Positions 1,126 to 27,036 of a stretch of DNA of 64,000 nucleotides are shown here, one piece after another. Made by a program: the position numbers and the translations under genes. Source of the DNA: a virus; IMG/VR virus record IMGVR_UViG_3300043570_003617; one strand, written 5' to 3'. The notes below the pieces were generated by a model, which saw nothing but the letters and a program-made list of their open reading frames with translations, made no database searches and was not told the origin of the DNA. Numbering within the stretch: the stretch's first letter is position 1; every line of letters starts with the position of its first letter.

Positions 1126-2073
1126 ATGTCAATACTTATTTTTAACGATGAAATGTACAGCTTTCTACAATTCGCTCAAAGAGATTCTATTATAGCTGCT
1201 TTATTTTTACAAGGAGACTCATCGCATATCAATGATGAAGGTAACTATATTAAAAGAGTCAATGATGAAATTGATGTAGTTTCATTTTTACCAAAATCTA
1301 AATATGAAAAGGTTGAAGATAATTGGGAAAATGGTCGAGTTAAAATTAAAATTGGAAGATTTGTTAGAAAGTTCTTAACAGAGTTCTCATTTAAGAATTT
1401 TAAAGTGACTGATACTCTTATTGAAAAATTTGTAAATCTTTATAAATCTTATTTTTCAAGAGACACTTCTAAATTGAAAATTTTTGAAGGTGAAGAAATT
1501 CTAAAGTATTATTTAGAGGATAACTACCACACGGTGAATGGTAGTAGATTTGGCACTCTTTGGAATTCTTGTATGAGACAACCAGAAAGAAATAAGTTTA
1601 TGAAACTTTATGCTAAAAATAAAGATAAAGTTAAATTGTTAGTTTTCTTTTCAGATGATGATAAAGTAAGAGCAAGAGCTTTATTATGGGAAGGGGTTAA
1701 AGACCATAAAGATTCTACTAAAGAATATAAATTTATGGATAGAATTTATTATGTTTATGATCATGATATTAACTTTTTCAAAGATTGGGCTAAAGAAAAT
1801 GGTTACATTTCCAAATGGGAACAAAGTGCTAAAACAGAACTTTTATTTGATATTGATGGTGAGGTAAAAAGGTTACAACTTTATGTGAATTTAGATGATA
1901 GTGGATTATCTTATTTTCCTTATTTAGACACATTTAAAAATTTCTATGTTAGTAAAAGTAGATTTTCAAATAGTCAAAATTACAACTTTGATTATGTATT
2001 AGTACAAAGTAATGGTCAAGTCGAAAGAGAACCTGAACCAGATGAATACTTTGATGAAGACGATAATAATTAA
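1126..2073 (+). CDS. hypothetical protein, paralog of 24427..25950 over a shared ~250-aa domain of unknown function
   Basis: Shared blocks GxLxNSCM, RALLW, KFMDRIY, AKENG[YW] and YPYLDT[FL]K with ORF 24427..25950. TATATA motif abuts the ATG. Confidence 0.7.
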   Translation: MSILIFNDEMYSFLQFAQRDSIIAALFLQGDSSHINDEGNYIKRVNDEIDVVSFLPKSKYEKVEDNWENGRVKIKIGRFVRKFLTEFSFKNFKVTDTLIEKFVNLYKSYFSRDTSKLKIFEGEEILKYYLEDNYHTVNGSRFGTLWNSCMRQPERNKFMKLYAKNKDKVKLLVFFSDDDKVRARALLWEGVKDHKDSTKEYKFMDRIYYVYDHDINFFKDWAKENGYISKWEQSAKTELLFDIDGEVKRLQLYVNLDDSGLSYFPYLDTFKNFYVSKSRFSNSQNYNFDYVLVQSNGQVEREPEPDEYFDEDDNN

Positions 2074-10493: not shown

Positions 10494-10895
10494 ATGATTA
10501 AAAAGTATTCACAATTCATAAAAGAAGCTGATGAGGTAGAAACACCTGAAACAGAAAATCAAGAAGTTGCTAAACCTCAATCTGACAATAAATATACAGA
10601 GTTAAAAGAGGAAGTTAAATCTATGATTGAAAAAACTATTGATAAAAGCGGTGGTGATTTCGAATCATTTAAAGATAAATTTGTTAAATCACCAGAAGAC
10701 ACTAAGATTGAAGGATTTATAAATGATTCAGATATCTATGAGTTTTACTTAAAGTTTAGAAATGATATTGATGAATTATTAAATAGTGTTAAATACTTTG
10801 ATGAAGTACCAAGTGAGTCTAATACTTTTGGATTATATGATTATATCATAAGTGGTACTGAAAGAGCTGTTATTGAAGCAGTTAAGACACTTTAG
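10494..10895 (+). CDS. candidate packaged internal protein with T4-like capsid-targeting N-terminus (MIKKYSQFIKE)
   Basis: N-terminus resembles the T4 IPI/IPII/IPIII capsid-targeting sequence MKTYQEFIAE, including an I-x-E cleavage-site-like ending. One of at least 6-7 such ORFs in the window. Confidence 0.6.
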   Translation: MIKKYSQFIKEADEVETPETENQEVAKPQSDNKYTELKEEVKSMIEKTIDKSGGDFESFKDKFVKSPEDTKIEGFINDSDIYEFYLKFRNDIDELLNSVKYFDEVPSESNTFGLYDYIISGTERAVIEAVKTL

Positions 10896-19079: not shown

Positions 19080-19096
19080 AATTTAATATATACAAT
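19080..19096 (+). promoter_or_regulatory. putative promoter AATTTAATATATACAAT abutting the ATG
   Basis: 17-mer identical to the one upstream of 10494. Confidence 0.5.
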
Positions 19097-20053
19097 ATGA
19101 TTAAAAGATATTTAGAATTTATAAAAGAAAATCTCAACGGTTTTAATTCACTTGGTGAGTGGATTGAATCTCTTATGGAGGATGAGTATGTTAGAAACAT
19201 TATAGCTCGTTATACAAAAGATTCTGACCATTCTATTGACTTATCAAATGCTATTAATATCTTAGATGATAAAACTAAACAAGAGATAAAAGCTCAAATA
19301 GACCATTATTTAGAAAACGGTATTGAGGAAAAAGAACCTCAGTTTTTAGTTTCTACAGATTTAGAACCTTTAACAGAATCTGAAATTACAGTTGCTGGAA
19401 AAGGTATATTTATTTCTTTCTTAAAATCATTAACAAGTTTAGGTCAAAAAGAGGTTCAACCATCTTGGGAAAAATGTCCTGATGGATTCTTATTATTTTA
19501 TCATTATCCTAATTTACAATCAGAAGATGTTAAACAAGTATTCTCAAGATTTAAGTCTTTAACTAGATATTTAGATATAGTTGATTATCAAAAGAACGAG
19601 ACAGATCTTTACTTTGGTATTAAATGTGATGGTAATTTCGAATACGGTGTTCATTATGATGTGTTAAAACCAATTGGTCAGTTTAGATTATCACAATCTG
19701 TTATTAAATGGATTTGTCAAATAGAATCTAAATCAGCTTCTTCATTAAAGAAAGAATTAGTTAATTTAACTTTAGCTGATGTTATTACATTAGGTAAGAT
19801 TAAAACAGATATGTTAACATTTAATCCAGGATATCACGAAAAGAAATTATCACCTATGTTAAAAGATAGAGTTATTTCATTTGGTTACTTTGGTGTTGGT
19901 AGATGGGATAATGGTAAAATTGATGAAGGTGAATTAATGAATGTTAAAAATAACTTTACTACTTGGTTACTTACTAAAAGATGGGGAAGTAAAGTTTTAA
20001 TAAGTGTTAAACCAAATTCTTTTTGGTTATACTTACATTTGAAATTAAAGTAA
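19097..20053 (+). CDS. candidate packaged internal protein with T4-like capsid-targeting N-terminus (MIKRYLEFIKE)
   Basis: CTS-like N-terminus. 318 aa. Confidence 0.6.
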   Translation: MIKRYLEFIKENLNGFNSLGEWIESLMEDEYVRNIIARYTKDSDHSIDLSNAINILDDKTKQEIKAQIDHYLENGIEEKEPQFLVSTDLEPLTESEITVAGKGIFISFLKSLTSLGQKEVQPSWEKCPDGFLLFYHYPNLQSEDVKQVFSRFKSLTRYLDIVDYQKNETDLYFGIKCDGNFEYGVHYDVLKPIGQFRLSQSVIKWICQIESKSASSLKKELVNLTLADVITLGKIKTDMLTFNPGYHEKKLSPMLKDRVISFGYFGVGRWDNGKIDEGELMNVKNNFTTWLLTKRWGSKVLISVKPNSFWLYLHLKLK

Positions 20054-20055
20054 TT

Positions 20056-20796
20056 ATGAAAATTAAAAACTATAAATTATTTTTAGAGTCAAATGATTTT
20101 GACTTTGATTTTTTAGCAAACATTGGTAAAATGAAACAAGCTATTATTAAAATAGTTCAACTTCATGAGAAAAAGTGTTATGATGATATTAAACTATCAT
20201 CTTATGAAAGATTTAAAGCTTCATTGAATGATTTAATTGATAGTGCTGTTAAAGGTGAATTTACAATAACAGAAGATTACTTATCTGTAATTAATTTGTT
20301 TGAAAAAGAAGTTTATAATAAAAGTTTATTTTCCTCTTATGAGGAATCAATGTTTAGTCATTTAGATGATTTGATATCTTGTTTTAATAGTTTATTGGAT
20401 AATGAAGAGAGAGATGAAGAAGATATTATGAGATTAGGAAAAGAAGCTGATCATATCTTAGATAAGATGGATGATTCTTGGGTTTATGAGAACGAATCTG
20501 ATAATAGTAATTTTGAAATTAACACTGATGGTATTGATGATGCTATTGCTGGTTTAGAAGATAGATTATCAAAAGAAACTGATGCCATGTGGACTTCTGA
20601 AGAAGAATTTGAAAAAGATATTGAATCCTATATTGGTAAAAAAATAGAAGATTTTGATTATTCTGAAAAACTTCAAGCTTTTCAATATATTGAAAATAAA
20701 GAATGGGTAAAAAATATACTTGAAGGTGGTTCTGAGAAAGATAAAAATTTTGTTAATAATTTTCTTTCACAAATGAAAGATTTATTTGAACTATAA
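20056..20796 (+). CDS. acidic hypothetical protein; start re-assigned to internal ATG (MKIKNYKLFLES), weaker CTS-like N-terminus
   Basis: Track ORF 20023 overlaps the upstream gene. The in-frame ATG at 20056 follows the upstream stop by 2 nt and gives a KxYxxF-type N-terminus. Confidence 0.55.
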   Translation: MKIKNYKLFLESNDFDFDFLANIGKMKQAIIKIVQLHEKKCYDDIKLSSYERFKASLNDLIDSAVKGEFTITEDYLSVINLFEKEVYNKSLFSSYEESMFSHLDDLISCFNSLLDNEERDEEDIMRLGKEADHILDKMDDSWVYENESDNSNFEINTDGIDDAIAGLEDRLSKETDAMWTSEEEFEKDIESYIGKKIEDFDYSEKLQAFQYIENKEWVKNILEGGSEKDKNFVNNFLSQMKDLFEL

Positions 20797-20811
20797 TTTA
20801 ATATATAAAAT
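20795..20811 (+). promoter_or_regulatory. putative promoter AATTTAATATATAAAAT abutting the ATG
   Basis: Variant of the recurring motif. Confidence 0.45.
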
Positions 20812-21123
20812 ATGAAATACTTAAAGAAATATAATGAGAGTCAAGATCAACAAGATCCTGAGTTTTCTATAACTAAGATTAAAGAAGAATATTCACAAGA
20901 TAAAGTTCAGAATATGTTAGAAAAAGAAATCAAACAATGGATTCCAGATGAGGAAGATCCTGATTTTTATTCTACTTCAGGAAATGGTGAAGCTGAAGAT
21001 GTTATTATCAATCAAATGATTGGTTGGTTTGATAAAAAGTATTATGCTTTATCTGATGAAAACTTTGAGAAAGTTAAACAATTGGTACTAAAAGAGTATG
21101 AGTTCTTAAACTTTAACTACTAA
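20812..21123 (+). CDS. small acidic hypothetical protein (MKYLKKYNES N-terminus)
   Basis: ORF with motif promoter. Weak resemblance to the CTS family. Confidence 0.55.
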   Translation: MKYLKKYNESQDQQDPEFSITKIKEEYSQDKVQNMLEKEIKQWIPDEEDPDFYSTSGNGEAEDVIINQMIGWFDKKYYALSDENFEKVKQLVLKEYEFLNFNY

Positions 21124-21169: not shown

Positions 21170-21502
21170 ATGAAACAACCAAGTTTATTCCCAGTGGCTA
21201 TGAAGATTGCTGTTCAAACTATTGGACAAGATTTAGTCAGTGTTCAACCAATGACTGGACCAGGCGGAATGTCCAAAGAAGAAAAAGAAAGAATTGAAGC
21301 CGAGATTAAACAAAAAAATCGTGATGGTAAAATTGATTCTTTAATTGAAGGAACCGAATATAAGGAAGAAAAATTAGAACAACATCCTGATTATAAACCA
21401 GGTAGTGGTGGTCAACTATTTTATATGGATTATAAATACAATTCTTCTACTCACAAGAAAACAAGAAGAAGTAAAAAGAAAAAGAAAGATGGTAGTATTT
21501 AA
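21170..21502 (+). CDS. small Lys-rich hypothetical protein with a gp23-like IxxDLxSVQPMxxPxG motif
   Basis: IGQDLVSVQPMTGPGG resembles AFDICGVQPMNSPTGQ of T4 major capsid protein gp23. The protein is only 110 aa, so it is not itself a major capsid protein. Confidence 0.5.
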   Translation: MKQPSLFPVAMKIAVQTIGQDLVSVQPMTGPGGMSKEEKERIEAEIKQKNRDGKIDSLIEGTEYKEEKLEQHPDYKPGSGGQLFYMDYKYNSSTHKKTRRSKKKKKDGSI

Positions 21503-21538: not shown

Positions 21539-21874
21539 ATGTTTAATATTTACTTAATATGTGCTGAATTTGAAGGAAGAAGATTGTATAAAATAGGTTA
21601 TACAAGAAGAGAAGTTTCTAAAAGAATTAAAGAGTTAAAAACCGGAAATGGTTCGGATTTATATCTTATAAATTCCTTTAAGTCAAAATGGGGAACAAAA
21701 ATAGAATCCCAACTACATAGAACATTTAAAAGTAAAAAGATAAATGGTGAGTGGTTTGATTTAACTGATGAAGATGTGAAATCATTTATGGATAAATGTA
21801 AATTATCACATGAGACTATAGAAATGATAACTACACATAATACTTACTACTTAGAGACAGGTAAACTATTTTAA
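21539..21874 (+). CDS. T5orf172 / MUG113 (GIY-YIG superfamily) domain protein
   Basis: YKIGYTRREVSKRIKELKTG plus QLHRTFKSKKINGEWFDLTDEDV match the T5orf172 hallmark (KIGxT ... lH..F ... GEWF). Confidence 0.7.
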   Translation: MFNIYLICAEFEGRRLYKIGYTRREVSKRIKELKTGNGSDLYLINSFKSKWGTKIESQLHRTFKSKKINGEWFDLTDEDVKSFMDKCKLSHETIEMITTHNTYYLETGKLF

Positions 21875-24426: not shown

Positions 24427-25950
24427 TTAATTACAATCGTAACAACTAGTATTACCTCTTCCGTCACAATTTCCACATTCAACATTACCTCGACCGCGAC
24501 AATCAGAACATTCTATTTCTCCATTTCCATTACAATCTTCACAATTGTTATTTCCTCTACCATCACAATCTGGACATTCTATTTCATTTCCTTCTTCATC
24601 TTCAATGTTTCCAGATCCATCACAATTACTACATTCAATATCACCTGATCCTGAACAATCATTACAACTAATTTCACCTCCTCCTGAACACTCATCACAA
24701 TCAACTTCACCATTTCCATAACAATCACCACATTCAACTTCACCAGAACCACCACAAGTTTCACATGATGATGAATCACCACCACCTGTATCTTCTAATG
24801 TTAAATAATCTCCTTTTTGTTCACTACTTAATATCCCTCTACCTTCTTGAAAATACTTCAAAGTATCTAAGTAAGGATAGTTGCTATAATTTTTCTTGTC
24901 TAAATTTACAGTTAAATCTAAACTAACATTCGATCCATCTGGAGCATAAGCTTTATTATCATCACTACTATTGTTATAGTATTTAGAATACCAACCATTT
25001 TCTTTAGCATAATCTCTAAATAATTGAATATCTGAATCATTTATTGCATAGATTCTATCCATGAACTTTTTACCATCTGTTAAAGTCCAAAGTAAAGCTC
25101 TTCCTGTTATTTTATCTGTATCATCTTGTGATTTGAATATAACTAAACTAACTTGGTCAGGATTCTCTGTGTATATTTCTAACCAACTAGCTCTAGCGTT
25201 AGCCATACAAGAGTTTCCTAAAGTACCACTTCTTTGGTAATAGTTTTGATAGTTATACCAAAAGTATATTTTTTCTCCAGTTACTTCTTCAAAGAAAGAA
25301 AATTTATCATTCATTTTATCAATAGTCGCTTTGAATAGATTAACAAATGTTTCATAATCTTTATCTAAAATACCTTCAACACCAGCAGCTTTTAATAAAG
25401 CTCTTGATGCTCTACCAACTTTAACCTCTTGTCTATTCTTAGACCATATTTGATTGATTCTATCATCAGTATTTCTTAACTTCTCTACATTATAAACACC
25501 TTGACCATTTGGAAATTTAACCCAAGCATAAGTCTTACCTGATGTTTCTGATGTTACTTTAGCAACAACTTCACCTATCTCAGTTGAGTTTGGTGTGTGA
25601 ACACTTCCTTCAGGTGTATATCCTAACTTATCAAATAACTCTTGATTAGATTCTGAGTGTTTCAACCAACCACCACCTGATCCTATAAATCTAACAGTTT
25701 CTTTAGCATCGCCAAGTATTTCTTGAGCTTTTCTATCTGGAGTAAATGAAACAATATCATTCTTACTTAAATCTATATCAAAATAATTTGTTTGTGTAGT
25801 AATGTCTTTATTTTCAGTGTCTAATAAAGCTTTAGAAATTGGGTGGTCTATTTTAGCGAGTGCTTTTCTAAATTTATCAGAGAAAACCACATCAGATTCT
25901 AGTATTAATTCCAATGATTCATTAATGAAGTCTGAATATCTTTTTAACAT
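24427..25950 (-). CDS. CTS-like N-terminus (MLKRYSDFINE) protein with a conserved paralog domain and a C-terminal array of ~11 CxxCxGxG zinc-finger-like repeats
   Basis: The central ~250 aa are homologous to ORF 1126..2073. The C-terminus reads CETCGGSGEVECGDCYGNGEVDCDECSGGGE..., DnaJ-type Cys-rich repeats. Confidence 0.75.
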   Translation of the reverse strand: MLKRYSDFINESLELILESDVVFSDKFRKALAKIDHPISKALLDTENKDITTQTNYFDIDLSKNDIVSFTPDRKAQEILGDAKETVRFIGSGGGWLKHSESNQELFDKLGYTPEGSVHTPNSTEIGEVVAKVTSETSGKTYAWVKFPNGQGVYNVEKLRNTDDRINQIWSKNRQEVKVGRASRALLKAAGVEGILDKDYETFVNLFKATIDKMNDKFSFFEEVTGEKIYFWYNYQNYYQRSGTLGNSCMANARASWLEIYTENPDQVSLVIFKSQDDTDKITGRALLWTLTDGKKFMDRIYAINDSDIQLFRDYAKENGWYSKYYNNSSDDNKAYAPDGSNVSLDLTVNLDKKNYSNYPYLDTLKYFQEGRGILSSEQKGDYLTLEDTGGGDSSSCETCGGSGEVECGDCYGNGEVDCDECSGGGEISCNDCSGSGDIECSNCDGSGNIEDEEGNEIECPDCDGRGNNNCEDCNGNGEIECSDCRGRGNVECGNCDGRGNTSCYDCN

Positions 25951-25975: not shown

Positions 25976-25998
25976 GGTTATATATTAAATATATAAAG
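25976..25998. promoter_or_regulatory. palindromic divergent promoter region (GGTTATATATTAAATATATAAAG)
   Basis: Inverted arms TTATATAT / ATATATAA. The motif AATTTAATATATAAC reads on the minus strand (toward 24427..25950) and TTAAATATATAAAG on the plus strand (toward 26019). Confidence 0.45.
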
Positions 25999-26844: not shown

Positions 26845-27036
26845 ATGTTAATTGTAAAAGTAGAAGGAAAACAAACTTTAGAAAAAGCTTTGAAAGTTCT
26901 TAAAAGAAAATGGGACAAAACTAAAGCTATGAAAGAGTTGAGAGAAAGAAAAGAATTTACTAAAAGATCTGTTAAAAGAAGAGCTGAGATAACAAGAGCA
27001 TCTTATGTTCAGAAGAAGTATAGAAGTAATGATTAA
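26845..27036 (+). CDS. rpsU: ribosomal protein bS21 homolog
   Basis: MLIVKVEGKQTLEKALKVLKRKWDKTKAMKELRERKEFTKRSVKRR aligns by eye with bacterial S21 ([47 protein letters not shown]). 63 aa, basic. Confidence 0.75.
   Translation: MLIVKVEGKQTLEKALKVLKRKWDKTKAMKELRERKEFTKRSVKRRAEITRASYVQKKYRSND

What the first reader, a model, noticed from the sequence alone, without database searches (positions are those of the whole stretch)
19097..21123. Dispersed family of proteins with T4 internal-protein-like capsid-targeting N-termini
At least six ORFs begin with M-[IL]-K-[KR]-Y-x-x-F-I-[KN]-E or a close variant: 10494 (MIKKYSQFIKE), 19097 (MIKRYLEFIKE), 24427- (MLKRYSDFINE), 43158- (MKKNLKKYNDFINE), 40244- (MKYIKKFNEGF) and 20056 (MKIKNYKLFLES); 20812 (MKYLKKYNES) and 1126 (FNDEMYSFLQF) are weaker. 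This closely resembles the 10-residue capsid-targeting sequence MKTYQEFIAE of T4 IPI/IPII/IPIII and Alt, which directs proteins into the prohead and is removed by gp21 at (L/I)-x-E. FIKE, FINE and FNE also end in an I/N-x-E site. If functional, the phage packages a large, diverse set of proteins 100-500 aa long for ejection into the host. In T4-like phages such loci are hypervariable anti-restriction arsenals. Three members are adjacent here (19097, 20056, 20812), forming an IP-locus-like cluster.
Basis: partly seen in the sequence, partly recalled or inferred. Interest (0 to 1): 0.85.

Follow-up and report, generated by a model that had tools for sequence, protein, structure and literature searches.

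The report
Capsid-targeting tags on megaphage proteins
Four otherwise unrelated proteins of this huge, uncultivated phage begin with the same 11-residue tag, which matches residue for residue the signal phage T4 uses to load proteins into its head, so the tag probably marks the proteins this phage carries in its capsid and injects into its host.

Summary
Four genes (starts 10494+, 19097+, 25950-, 44192-) begin M-[IL]-K-[KR]-Y-x-x-F-I-[KN]-E. The motif occurs 4 times in N-terminal positions against once in about 19,000 internal ones (P about 1e-7). Genes 20812 and 40244- carry a conserved "half tag" (MKY[IL]KK[YF]NE), 20056 is degenerate, and 1126 is an untagged paralog of 24427-.

The window is a fragment of a low-GC huge phage related to the 642-kb genome LR756502.1. 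In that genome and in IMG/VR contigs, the tag heads about 137 ORFs in about 60 unrelated families. It is almost always at the first ATG, its synonymous codon usage equals the genomic background, and it is nearly absent from 596 Gbp of cellular genomes.

The relatives encode a T4-type head module: a gp20 portal, a gp21-like protease with aligned catalytic His and Ser, and a gp23 capsid protein. The protease is fused to a scaffold-like region holding 11 tandem 14-residue repeats, each containing Y-S-E-Y-[IL]-A-E, the same core as the tag and as T4's YQEFIAE.

The T4-like capsid-targeting reading is therefore well supported in silico. Packaging, cleavage and any anti-defence role remain unproven, and the protease was not seen in the window's own genome.

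The parts
10494..10895 (+). Tagged gene, 133 aa, acidic (pI 4.5). The tag MIKKYSQFIKE|A is encoded by 10494-10526.
   Evidence: All 11 distinct orthologs in LR756502.1 and IMG/VR keep the tag. TAATATATA lies 4 nt upstream of the ATG.
19097..20053 (+). Tagged gene, 318 aa. The tag MIKRYLEFIKE|N is encoded by 19097-19129. No known family or fold.
   Evidence: Orthologs down to 53% identity keep the tag, including the variant MKIKNYIQFIKE in LR. The AF2 model has mean pLDDT 67, with residues 1-14 below 50, so the tag is not part of the fold. No Foldseek, Pfam, PHROG or NCBIfam match.
20056..20796 (+). Doubtful member, 246 aa, acidic. It starts MKIKNYKLFLES, with no [IL]-x-E site. It begins 3 nt after the stop of 19097 and is present or absent among relatives.
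   Evidence: orthologs in L038, L040, L028; absent in LR and L032.
20812..21123 (+). 'Half-tag' gene, 103 aa, acidic. It starts MKYLKKYNE|S. The variant N-terminus is conserved in orthologs.
   Evidence: TAATATATA lies 4 nt upstream.
21170..21502 (+). Small protein (110 aa, pI 9.4) that copies the N-arm of the gp23-like capsid protein and ends in a poly-lysine tail. It is the conserved last gene of the cluster.
   Evidence: Orthologs of 128-165 aa also copy the MCP propeptide. The window copy lacks that part.
24427..25950 (-). Tagged gene, 507 aa. The tag MLKRYSDFINE|S is encoded by 25918-25950. A second conserved I-L-E site lies at residues 16-18. The protein has an unknown central domain and C-terminal CxxCxGxG zinc-finger repeats.
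   Evidence: At least 5 tagged paralogs exist in LR. Untagged paralogs align from just after the tag.
43158..44192 (-). Tagged gene, 344 aa. The longer tag MKKNLKKYNDFINE|E is encoded by 44151-44192.
   Evidence: TAATATATA lies 123 nt upstream. No ortholog was found in the fetched loci.
40244..40954 (-). 'Half-tag' gene, 236 aa. It starts MKYIKKFNE|G and also has one internal YQIFIDE at residue 198.
   Evidence: TAATATATA lies 23 nt upstream.
1126..2073 (+). Not a member. It is an untagged paralog of the central domain of 24427-25950(-).
   Evidence: BLASTP 37% identity over 243 aa, E = 4e-40; alignment A3.
19084..19092 (+). One of 15 TAATATATA sites, a probable late-promoter element. The others are at 2938, 10481, 11770, 14626, 20799, 21526, 39203 and 51090 (+) and at 25979, 32609, 37267, 40978, 44316 and 61293 (-).
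   Evidence: 15 sites found against 5.8 expected, with 0 of 100 shuffles reaching 15. All lie upstream of a gene in the sense orientation, 4-123 nt from the start. In LR an ATATATA core (preceded by A or T) precedes terL, sheath, portal, protease and MCP.
41987..43096 (-). M16 (pitrilysin-type) metallopeptidase with an intact HxxEH motif, between two tag-related genes. It is an alternative candidate processing enzyme.
   Evidence: Pfam Peptidase_M16 and M16_C. HLMEH motif, and 82% identity to the LR ortholog.

Best explanation
The 11-residue N-terminus M-[ILV]-K-[KR]-Y-x-[QED]-F-I-[NK]-E is a portable capsid-targeting propeptide of the T4 CTS type.

Proposed mechanism (inferred throughout):
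1. Late in infection the tagged proteins are made together with the structural proteins.
2. The tag docks them onto the scaffolding core of the prohead. That core is built from a protease-scaffold fusion whose scaffold part consists of tandem copies of the same heptad, Y-S-E-Y-[IL]-A-E.
3. The capsid shell closes around the core.
4. The gp21-like serine protease cuts after the Glu of every [IL]-x-E. This dismantles the scaffold, trims the capsid protein at I-N-E and releases the cargo from its tag.
5. The mature proteins stay in the head with the DNA and enter the host on ejection.

Shown here: the tag, its position, its portability, protein-level conservation, its restriction to this phage clade, the T4-type head genes and the scaffold repeats in relatives.

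Inferred: binding to the scaffold, cleavage, presence in the virion, and ejection.
For: 1. Position. In the window the motif has 4 N-terminal hits and 1 internal hit (P = 9e-8). In the complete 642-kb relative LR756502.1, 13 of 25 Y..F[IL].E occurrences lie in the first 12 residues, and 22-25 ORFs carry the tag.

2. Portability. A degenerate DNA pattern for the tag found 70 matches in IMG/VR. All are in 24-39% GC contigs of up to 483 kb, and 69 of 70 sit at the first ATG of an ORF of at least 56 aa. Across all fetched loci there are 137 tagged ORFs in about 61 families. Tagged and untagged paralogs of one family differ by exactly the N-terminal add-on.

3. Specificity. The same pattern found only 15 matches in 596 Gbp of cellular genomes, most of them in two ordinary bacterial protein families.

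4. Protein-level selection. Synonymous codon use at the Y, F, I and K positions equals the genomic background. The tag occurs with and without the adjacent promoter, and its P1 Glu (the residue before the predicted cut) lies anywhere from residue 10 to 20.

5. Match to T4. IPII and IPIII start MKTYQEFIAE|A. The residues needed for targeting (4, 7) and for processing (8, 10) (PMC9026906) are the conserved Y, F, I and E of the tag. The P1' residue (immediately after the cut) is mostly S, A, N or G.

6. T4-type head module in relatives.
- Portal_T4, E = 1.3e-57.
- Gp23 MCP, E = 3.7e-28.
- Peptidase_S77 N-domain, E = 4.6e-4.
- BLASTP against T4 gp21 gives E = 4e-6, with T4 His85 and Ser140 aligned.
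- hhalign gives 74% probability, E = 2.7e-5.
- Several family members carry a precomputed PF03420 hit.
- Six IMG/VR contigs carry both this protease and tag genes.

7. Scaffold repeats. The protease is fused to a region with 11 tandem 14-residue repeats containing Y-S-E-Y-[IL]-A-E, found in all 18 distinct homologs. [LI]xE occurs 26 times against 13.1 +- 3.0 in shuffles.

8. Capsid protein site. The MCP propeptide of 39 distinct relatives has an invariant ...EYAE[FY]HxINE|NAY.

9. Shared promoter. Tag genes share the TAATATATA/ATATATA element with terL, sheath, portal, protease and MCP: 15 of 25 tag genes against 224 of 885 other genes (P = 3e-4).

10. Structure. In the AF2 model of the 19097 protein, residues 1-14 have pLDDT below 50, which suggests a tag not packed against the fold.
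Against: - There are no proteomic or biochemical data. Cleavage and packaging rest on analogy.
- The head module was found in relatives (64-85% identical orthologs of the window's tagged genes), not on the window or on its source contig of about 67 kb.
- The S77 Pfam hit is below the gathering score (20.2 against 27 bits). A family profile found no PDB chain.
- The window's tagged proteins are acidic and 133-507 aa long, unlike T4's small basic internal proteins.
- In a few relatives the tag is followed by a signal-peptide or lipoprotein-like hydrophobic segment. That would fit export as well as a membrane-active ejection protein.
- A highly conserved M16 peptidase sits among the tag genes.
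- The predicted MCP site has a different spacing (Y-x-x-F-x-x-I-N-E).
Confidence: 0.7

Rival explanations
1. The tag is a real N-terminal address or interaction helix, but not for the capsid, or it is not cut by the gp21-like protease. For example, it could be a presequence recognised by the conserved phage M16 (pitrilysin/MPP-type) peptidase. It could also be an assembly, oligomerisation or export-related leader for proteins that act in the infected cell.
For: - An active-looking M16 peptidase (HLMEH) lies between tag-related genes. It is 82% identical in LR756502.1, more conserved than its neighbours. From established knowledge, M16 enzymes such as mitochondrial processing peptidase remove N-terminal presequences.
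- Some tags precede a signal or lipoprotein-like hydrophobic segment, e.g. LR 580926 ...FVNE|EINWKGVVAGAMSLLATAC.
- The cargo is acidic rather than DNA-binding.
Against: - The tag ends in [IL]-x-E followed by a small residue, which is the gp21 motif and not an M16/MPP-type site.
- The identical heptad is repeated 11 times inside the protease-scaffold protein and matches the T4 CTS at its functional residues.
- Tag genes share the promoter element of the head genes.
- A propeptide followed by a transmembrane helix is known for a giant-phage ejection protein, SPN3US gp47 (PMC5694885).
Confidence: 0.17
2. The conservation lies in the DNA, not the peptide. A promoter plus initiation-region cassette (TAATATATAcAAT-ATG plus the first codons) is copied between late genes by recombination, or is needed for transcription or translation of near-leaderless late mRNAs. 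The encoded peptide has no function of its own.
For: - In several genes TAATATATA lies only 4-5 nt before the ATG.
- The upstream region plus first codons of 10494 and 19097 are nearly identical in DNA.
- T4 ipII and ipIII likewise share an identical promoter-plus-CTS DNA stretch.
Against: - Synonymous codons at the conserved residues follow the genomic background: TAT/TAC 76/24 against 79/21, TTT/TTC 71/29 against 69/31, AAA/AAG 55/45 against 57/43.
- The x positions vary freely, and the tag occurs 21-123 nt from the promoter or without it.
- The tag can be preceded by 1-9 extra residues.
- Most genes with the same promoter have no tag.
- The heptad recurs internally in the scaffold.
Confidence: 0.08
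3. The motif is a chance or compositional artefact of an AT-rich genome, which is rich in K, I, N, Y, F and E.
For: The genome is 28% GC, and every motif residue has AT-rich codons.
Against: - A six-frame scan of the same DNA gives only 2 other hits.
- N-terminal enrichment has P = 9e-8.
- 69 of 70 IMG/VR matches are at ORF starts.
- The tag is conserved in orthologs down to 34% identity.
Confidence: 0.01

Closest known systems
Capsid targeting sequence (CTS) of phage T4 internal proteins IPII/IPIII (MKTYQEFIAE), IPI and Alt, removed by the prohead protease gp21
   Same: - A short N-terminal propeptide shared by otherwise unrelated proteins.
- The same core, K-x-Y-x-E-F-I-x-E, with the residues critical in T4 (Y4, F7, I8, E10) conserved at the same spacing.
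- It ends in (L/I)-x-E followed by a small residue.
- The conserved promoter plus tag DNA precedes variable cargo.
- It occurs in a phage with gp20-type portal, gp21-type protease and gp23-type MCP.
   Different: - The tag is one residue longer (the P1 Glu, the residue before the cut, is usually residue 11).
- It is used on about 20-25 proteins per genome and about 60 families in the clade, against a handful in T4.
- The window's cargo is acidic and up to 507 aa (758 aa in relatives), not small and basic.
- The host is probably Bacteroidetes and the genome exceeds 500 kb.
- No experimental evidence exists.
T4 prohead core: gp21 protease plus gp22 scaffold (separate genes), and protease-scaffold fusions such as herpesvirus UL26 (assemblin-scaffold), lambda C/Nu3 and P2 gpO (the fusion examples are from established knowledge)
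   Same: - An S77/assemblin-type protease domain with aligned His and Ser.
- The gene lies between portal and MCP.
- The scaffold is rich in [LI]-x-E sites, so it can be degraded.
- An I-V-E site at residue 8 parallels T4 gp21 LIE-9.
   Different: - Protease and scaffold form one 690-740 aa polypeptide.
- The scaffold contains 9-12 exact-period 14-residue repeats, each carrying a CTS-like heptad. I found no description of such a feature for T4 gp22. The T4 gp22 sequence has no such heptad.
Propeptides of ejection and inner-body proteins of phiKZ-like giant phages (phiKZ, 201phi2-1, SPN3US), cleaved by gp175/gp245
   Same: Many head-internal proteins are loaded through N-terminal propeptides and cut after Glu by a gp21-related protease. 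One propeptide is followed by a transmembrane helix (SPN3US gp47) (PMC5694885).
   Different: In those phages the propeptides are mostly longer than 100 residues and have no shared sequence. Their cleavage motif is S/A/G-x-E rather than I/L-x-E. Here the tag is short, uniform and T4-like.

Membership tests
T4-type CTS-bearing head-internal proteins | Short (10-20 aa) N-terminal sequence shared by proteins that are otherwise unrelated | tested here: met
   Four window proteins are similar only in residues 1-15. There are 137 tagged ORFs in about 61 families in relatives.
T4-type CTS-bearing head-internal proteins | Residues shown to matter in T4 IPIII (aromatic at positions 4 and 7 for targeting; I8 and E10 for processing) present with the same spacing | tested here: met
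   Tag logo over 117 unique tags, numbering back from the cut after P1: P7 Y/F 117/117, P4 F/Y 117/117, P3 I/L/V 117/117, P1 E 117/117. These four positions are fixed by the extraction regex, so the logo is informative only at the other positions. The independent evidence is their conservation across orthologs down to 34% identity and the N-terminal enrichment. T4 sequences are and the functional mapping from PMC9026906.
T4-type CTS-bearing head-internal proteins | Ends in the gp21 consensus (L/I)-x-E with cleavage after Glu | tested here: inconclusive
   The sequence motif is present, and the P1' residue (immediately after the cut) is mostly S/A/N/G. Actual cleavage cannot be tested in silico.
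T4-type CTS-bearing head-internal proteins | Phage encodes a T4-type (S77) prohead protease with gp20 portal and gp23 MCP | tested here: met
   Met in the relatives LR756502.1 and IMG/VR contigs, six of which carry both the protease and tag genes. Not verifiable for the window's own genome, because the module lies outside the 64-kb window. The syntenic LR region is 301-358 kb and the LR head module is at 222-229 kb.
T4-type CTS-bearing head-internal proteins | Protein physically present in the mature head, without its propeptide, and ejected into the host | not testable with these tools
   Requires virion proteomics with N-terminal mapping.
T4-type CTS-bearing head-internal proteins | Late expression together with head genes | tested here: inconclusive
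   The TAATATATA/ATATATA element is shared with the structural genes. No transcript data are available.
T4 IP locus (hypervariable anti-restriction internal proteins) | Small basic proteins with anti-restriction function in a hyperplastic locus | tested here: not met
   - The window's tagged proteins have pI 4.3-6.1 and are 103-507 aa long.
- No function was found.
- Only modest presence/absence variation is seen, for 20056.
- One tagged family in relatives is a 2H phosphoesterase (Acb1-like, below the cut-off) plus an exonuclease.
Peptidase S77 (T4 gp21), tested on the relatives' 699-aa protein | Catalytic His and Ser in the conserved motifs GE.xHP and VSSRG | tested here: met
   GEFDHP aligns to T4 His85 and VSSRAAG to T4 Ser140. 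The residues are invariant in 24 family members.
Peptidase S77 (T4 gp21), tested on the relatives' 699-aa protein | Significant match to the family model | tested here: inconclusive
   - Pfam PF03420: E = 4.6e-4, 20.2 bits, below the gathering score of 27.
- Precomputed PF03420 hits on 7 listed relatives.
- hhalign probability 74%.
- No PDB sequence hit.

The most novel reading that the evidence does not exclude
A single heptad code, aromatic-x-[EQD]-aromatic-[IL]-x-E, is both the repeating unit of a protease-scaffold fusion and the address label of the cargo. On this reading, megaphage proteins enter the prohead by mimicking one scaffold repeat and are released by the same cut that dismantles the scaffold. 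The code would be conserved from 170-kb T4 to >600-kb Bacteroidetes megaphages. It would let the whole injected proteome (about 20-25 proteins per genome, about 60 families, nearly all of unknown function) be read directly from metagenomic sequence.
Probability: 0.45. Interest if true: 0.78.

Novelty: new variant of a known kind. Interest (0 to 1): 0.64.

Why it matters
Megaphages of this clade have never been cultivated, and nearly all their genes are unannotated.

- **A readable label for injected proteins.** If the tag is a capsid address, a simple sequence rule identifies which of the roughly 900 genes encode proteins delivered into the host with the DNA. These are the most likely early take-over and anti-defence factors. 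In relatives they include a 2H phosphoesterase-exonuclease fusion and a metallopeptidase-VWA protein.
- **Evolutionary reach of the T4 code.** The T4 CTS would be an ancient, transferable code rather than a T-even peculiarity.
- **A mechanistic hypothesis.** The scaffold repeats suggest that the tag acts as a scaffold-repeat mimic. That bears on what the CTS binds in the prohead core. The review read here says only that the propeptides have affinity for the core (PMC9026906).
- **A practical use.** The tag could serve as a ready-made handle for loading foreign proteins into large capsids.

Tried and rejected
- **Family searches.** PHROGs, Pfam and NCBIfam gave nothing usable for the seven tag-related window proteins. 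The only hit was a weak DnaJ/anti-TRAP-type zinc-finger match in the C-terminus of 24427-.
- **Homolog searches.** The search for homologous proteins on 19097 and 1126 returned only close, unnamed homologs without Pfam domains.
- **Structure of 19097.** The AF2 model has pLDDT 67. Foldseek against the PDB gave no match with E < 0.01 or TM > 0.25.
- **Structure of 1126.** The AF2 model has pLDDT 49, too poor to search with.
- **PDB sequence searches.** A profile of the 24427-/1126 family hit only the zinc-finger part. The LR protease alone and a family profile found no chain; homology to gp21 rests on BLASTP, hhalign, Pfam and synteny.
- **Large window proteins.** PHROGs and Pfam mostly gave nothing, apart from a collagen-like tail fibre (15829), a Laminin_G/virion structural protein (17021) and phrog_29329 (58068-).
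- **ORF 1126 as a tag member.** Rejected.
- **Linking window and protease on one contig.** I looked for a contig carrying both an exact window protein and the protease. None is long enough: the longest is 66.7 kb.
- **Literature.** Searches found no description of CTS-like tags in huge phages or megaphages. This covers only the held library.
Full report
**What the window is**

The window is 28% GC. Its only nucleotide-level relatives among deposited phages are LR756502.1 (642,428 bp) and LR745206.1 (634,780 bp), at about 75% identity over conserved genes. These lengths match the 642- and 634-kb genomes of Al-Shayeb et al. 2020. That paper places its largest genomes in the 'Mahaphage' clade with predicted Bacteroidetes hosts (PMC7162821); linking the records to the paper is my inference.

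The window is syntenic with LR756502.1 positions 301-358 kb. It encodes a ribosomal protein bS21, as do other Bacteroidetes huge phages (PMC9723584). The longest public contig that carries an exact window protein is 66.7 kb, so the rest of this genome is not available.

**Checking the observation**

Four ORFs start with the full motif:
- 10494(+) MIKKYSQFIKE
- 19097(+) MIKRYLEFIKE
- 24427-25950(-) MLKRYSDFINE
- 43158-44192(-) MKKNLKKYNDFINE

Y..F[IL].E occurs six times in all six frames, and four of those are these N-termini. Among 58 likely genes there are 4 hits in 754 N-terminal positions and 1 in 19,391 internal positions (P = 9e-8). The four proteins resemble each other only in residues 1-15.

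The remaining named members do not hold up as well:
- 20812 (MKYLKKYNES) and 40244- (MKYIKKFNEGF) share only the first half of the motif. The variant is conserved in orthologs of 20812, so it is a real but distinct N-terminus.
- 20056 (MKIKNYKLFLES) has no [IL]-x-E, and one ortholog starts quite differently.
- 1126 is an untagged paralog of 24427-.

**The tag is portable, protein-level and specific to this clade**

- A degenerate DNA pattern for M-x-K-[KR]-Y-x-x-F-I-[KN]-E found 70 matches in IMG/VR. All lie in 24-39% GC contigs of up to 483 kb, several contigs have 3-6 matches, and 69 of 70 are at the first ATG of an ORF of 56-758 aa.
- The complete LR756502.1 genome, fetched in 14 pieces, has 22-25 tagged ORFs.
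- All fetched loci together hold 137 tagged ORFs in about 61 sequence families.
- Orthologs of 10494, 19097 and 24427- keep the tag down to 34% identity.
- In the large 24427-/1126 family, tagged and untagged paralogs align from just after the tag, so the tag is a modular add-on.
- Synonymous codon usage at the conserved Y, F, I and K positions equals the genomic background. This argues against a nucleotide-level signal.
- The same pattern gave only 15 matches in 596 Gbp of cellular genomes, mostly from two ordinary bacterial families.
- The consensus is M-I-K-K-Y-x-[QED]-F-I-[NK]-E followed by S/A/E/N/G. The Glu is at residue 11 in 82 of 137 cases, with a range of 10-20.

**Comparison with T4**

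I read T4's own genes. IPII and IPIII start MKTYQEFIAE|A, IPI starts MKTFKEF...ITE|A, and the gp23 maturation site is FGSFLTE|A.

According to the review of Black's work, residues 4 and 7 of the IPIII CTS carry the targeting function and residues 8 and 10 the processing function (PMC9026906). These are the Y, F, I and E that are conserved in the megaphage tag, at the same spacing.

**Is there a T4-type protease?**

It is not in the window, but it is present in the relatives.
- In LR756502.1, phmmer with T4 proteins found terminase gp17 (6e-48), sheath gp18 and portal gp20 (2e-27). It also gave a weak gp21 hit just downstream of the portal.
- Pfam gives Portal_T4 (1.3e-57), then a 699-aa protein whose residues 22-138 match Peptidase_S77 (4.6e-4, below the gathering score), then Gp23 (3.7e-28).
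- BLASTP of its N-domain against T4 gp21 gives E = 4e-6, with GEFDHP on T4 His85 and VSSRAAG on T4 Ser140.
- hhalign of a 24-member family profile gives 74% probability, E = 2.7e-5.
- Several members carry a precomputed PF03420 hit.
- The family is large, with more than 4,000 proteins.
- Six IMG/VR contigs carry both this gene and tag genes. Two of them hold orthologs of 19097 and 10494.

**An unexpected finding in the protease protein**

Its C-terminal 530 residues are scaffold-like. They contain 11 tandem 14-residue repeats, N-I-s-Y-S-E-Y-[IL]-A-E-n-L-D-K. Each repeat holds Y-S-E-Y-[IL]-A-E, the same heptad as the tag and as T4's Y-Q-E-F-I-A-E, and each ends in an [IL]-x-E site.

All 18 distinct homologs examined have 9-12 copies at exactly 14-residue spacing. 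[LI]xE is twice as frequent as in shuffles (26 against 13.1 +- 3.0, 0 of 2000 shuffles reaching 26). T4 gp22 has no such heptad.

Two further parallels with T4:
- The protein has an invariant I-V-E at residue 8, like T4 gp21's LIE-9.
- The capsid protein of 39 distinct relatives has an invariant ...EYAE[FY]HxINE|NAY in its propeptide. That is a plausible maturation site ending, like many tags, in I-N-E.

**Expression**

TAATATATA occurs 15 times in the window against 5.8 expected. Every copy is upstream of a gene in the sense orientation, 4-5 nt or 21-28 nt (twice more than 100 nt) before the start. Six of the seven tag-related genes and the large presumably structural genes have one within 125 nt upstream; 20056 has none and starts 3 nt after the stop of 19097.

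In LR756502.1 an ATATATA core (preceded by A or T) lies 20-35 nt before terL, sheath, portal, protease and MCP. It is enriched before tag genes: 15 of 25 against 224 of 885 (P = 3e-4). I read this as a late promoter, comparable to T4's TATAAATA (established knowledge). Late timing is an inference.

**Most likely mechanism**

Tagged proteins are made late and bind the prohead core through the tag, probably by mimicking a scaffold repeat. They are enclosed by the shell. The S77 protease then frees them by cutting after the tag's Glu, while also chopping the scaffold into 14-mers and trimming the MCP. The proteins are then ejected with the DNA.

The sequence facts are shown. Binding, cleavage, packaging and ejection are inferred. 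I put this explanation at about 0.7.

**Rivals**

1. *A real address, but not for the capsid, or processed by another enzyme (about 0.17).* An intact M16 peptidase lies between tag-related genes and is 82% identical in LR. A few tags in relatives are followed by signal or lipoprotein-like segments. However, the [IL]-x-E ending, the scaffold repeats and the T4 match point to the S77 enzyme. A propeptide followed by a transmembrane helix is known for the giant-phage ejection protein SPN3US gp47 (PMC5694885).
2. *A promoter/initiation DNA cassette (about 0.08).* This is contradicted by the codon analysis, the variable distance to the promoter, the variable offset of the tag, and the internal repeats.
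3. *Compositional chance (about 0.01).* This is excluded by the controls.

**What the cargo does**

This is unknown for all window members. There are no family hits. The medium-confidence model of 19097 has no structural neighbour, and the model of 1126 is unusable.

The window's tagged proteins are acidic, unlike T4's basic internal proteins. Among tagged families in relatives, one is a 2H phosphoesterase plus an RNase T-type exonuclease. It matches 2_5_RNA_ligase2 above the cut-off and Acb1 just below it. Another is a DUF2201 metallopeptidase-VWA protein. The 'anti-restriction arsenal' reading is thus possible but not shown.

**Novelty**

The T4 CTS and gp21 processing are textbook knowledge. 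phiKZ-like giant phages use long, dissimilar propeptides and S/A-x-E sites (PMC5694885, PMC9026906).

I found no description, in the library searched, of any of the following:
- a short, uniform, T4-like tag in phages of more than 500 kb;
- its use on about 60 families;
- a protease-scaffold fusion built of CTS-like repeats.

I class this as a new variant of a known kind.

Noticed in passing
L079:29272-31371 (LR756502.1 225272-227371) and homologs in L091-L170, L186-L265: The gp21-like protease is fused to a scaffold-like region with 9-12 tandem 14-residue repeats (NIsYSEY[IL]AEnLDK). Each repeat carries a CTS-like heptad and an [IL]-x-E site. The fusion recalls the herpesvirus UL26 protease-scaffold arrangement.
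   Followed up: yes
window 21170-21502 (+): A 110-aa basic protein whose N-terminus copies the N-arm of the gp23-like capsid protein (LFPVAMKIAVQTIGQDLVSVQP; GQLFYMDYKY) and which ends in a poly-lysine tail. Orthologs of 128-165 aa also copy the MCP propeptide (KKW.P.L..G.TG), but the window copy has lost about 45 residues of it. It may be a second, MCP-mimicking route into the head, or an assembly regulator.
   Followed up: partly
window 41987-43096 (-): An M16 (pitrilysin/insulinase) metallopeptidase with an intact HLMEH motif. It is 82% identical in LR756502.1 (338077-339189), much more conserved than the neighbouring genes. Its role is unknown.
   Followed up: partly
window 10481, 19084, 20799, 21526 (+), 32609 (-): At these genes TAATATATA ends only 4-5 nt before the ATG. 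If it is a -10-like late promoter element, these mRNAs would be leaderless or nearly so. A second class of sites has 21-28 nt spacing.
   Followed up: partly
window 26845-27036 (+): A phage-encoded ribosomal protein bS21 (precomputed Pfam hit PF01165 on the identical gene in L002).
   Followed up: no
window 24427-25950 (-), residues about 395-507: About a dozen CxxCxGxG repeats of the DnaJ/BSD2 cysteine-rich zinc-finger type at the C-terminus of a tagged protein. The family has at least 8 paralogs in LR756502.1, tagged and untagged, with an unknown central domain (conserved SCM, RALLW, MDRIY, PYLDT).
   Followed up: partly
L011:2550-3860 (-) and L057:39-1433 (+): Two tagged proteins in relatives have recognisable domains. 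One is a 2H phosphoesterase (2_5_RNA_ligase2; Acb1 just below its cut-off) fused to an RNase T-type exonuclease. The other is a DUF2201 metallopeptidase plus a VWA-like domain. Both are candidate injected enzymes.
   Followed up: partly
LR756502.1 ORFs 118688-119167(-), 435737-436228(+), 453659-454624(+), 477035-477451(+), 627751-628086(-), 181675-182793(+): Six of the 11 non-N-terminal, non-scaffold occurrences of the heptad lie within the last 45 residues or so of their ORFs. These may be C-terminal tags (T4 Alt is also processed C-terminally). This was not tested statistically.
   Followed up: no
protein P0232 and P0099: Homologs of window proteins sit on very long public contigs: 816,658 bp (78% identical to the 1126 protein) and 556,833 bp (85% identical to the 19097 protein). 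The first would exceed the largest phage genome reported in PMC7162821 (735 kb), if it is a single non-concatemeric phage genome.
   Followed up: no
window 21539-21874 (+): A T5orf172/MUG113-domain gene sits inside the tag-gene region. I take this to be a homing-endonuclease-like domain (from general knowledge, not tested), so it may be a mobile insertion.
   Followed up: no
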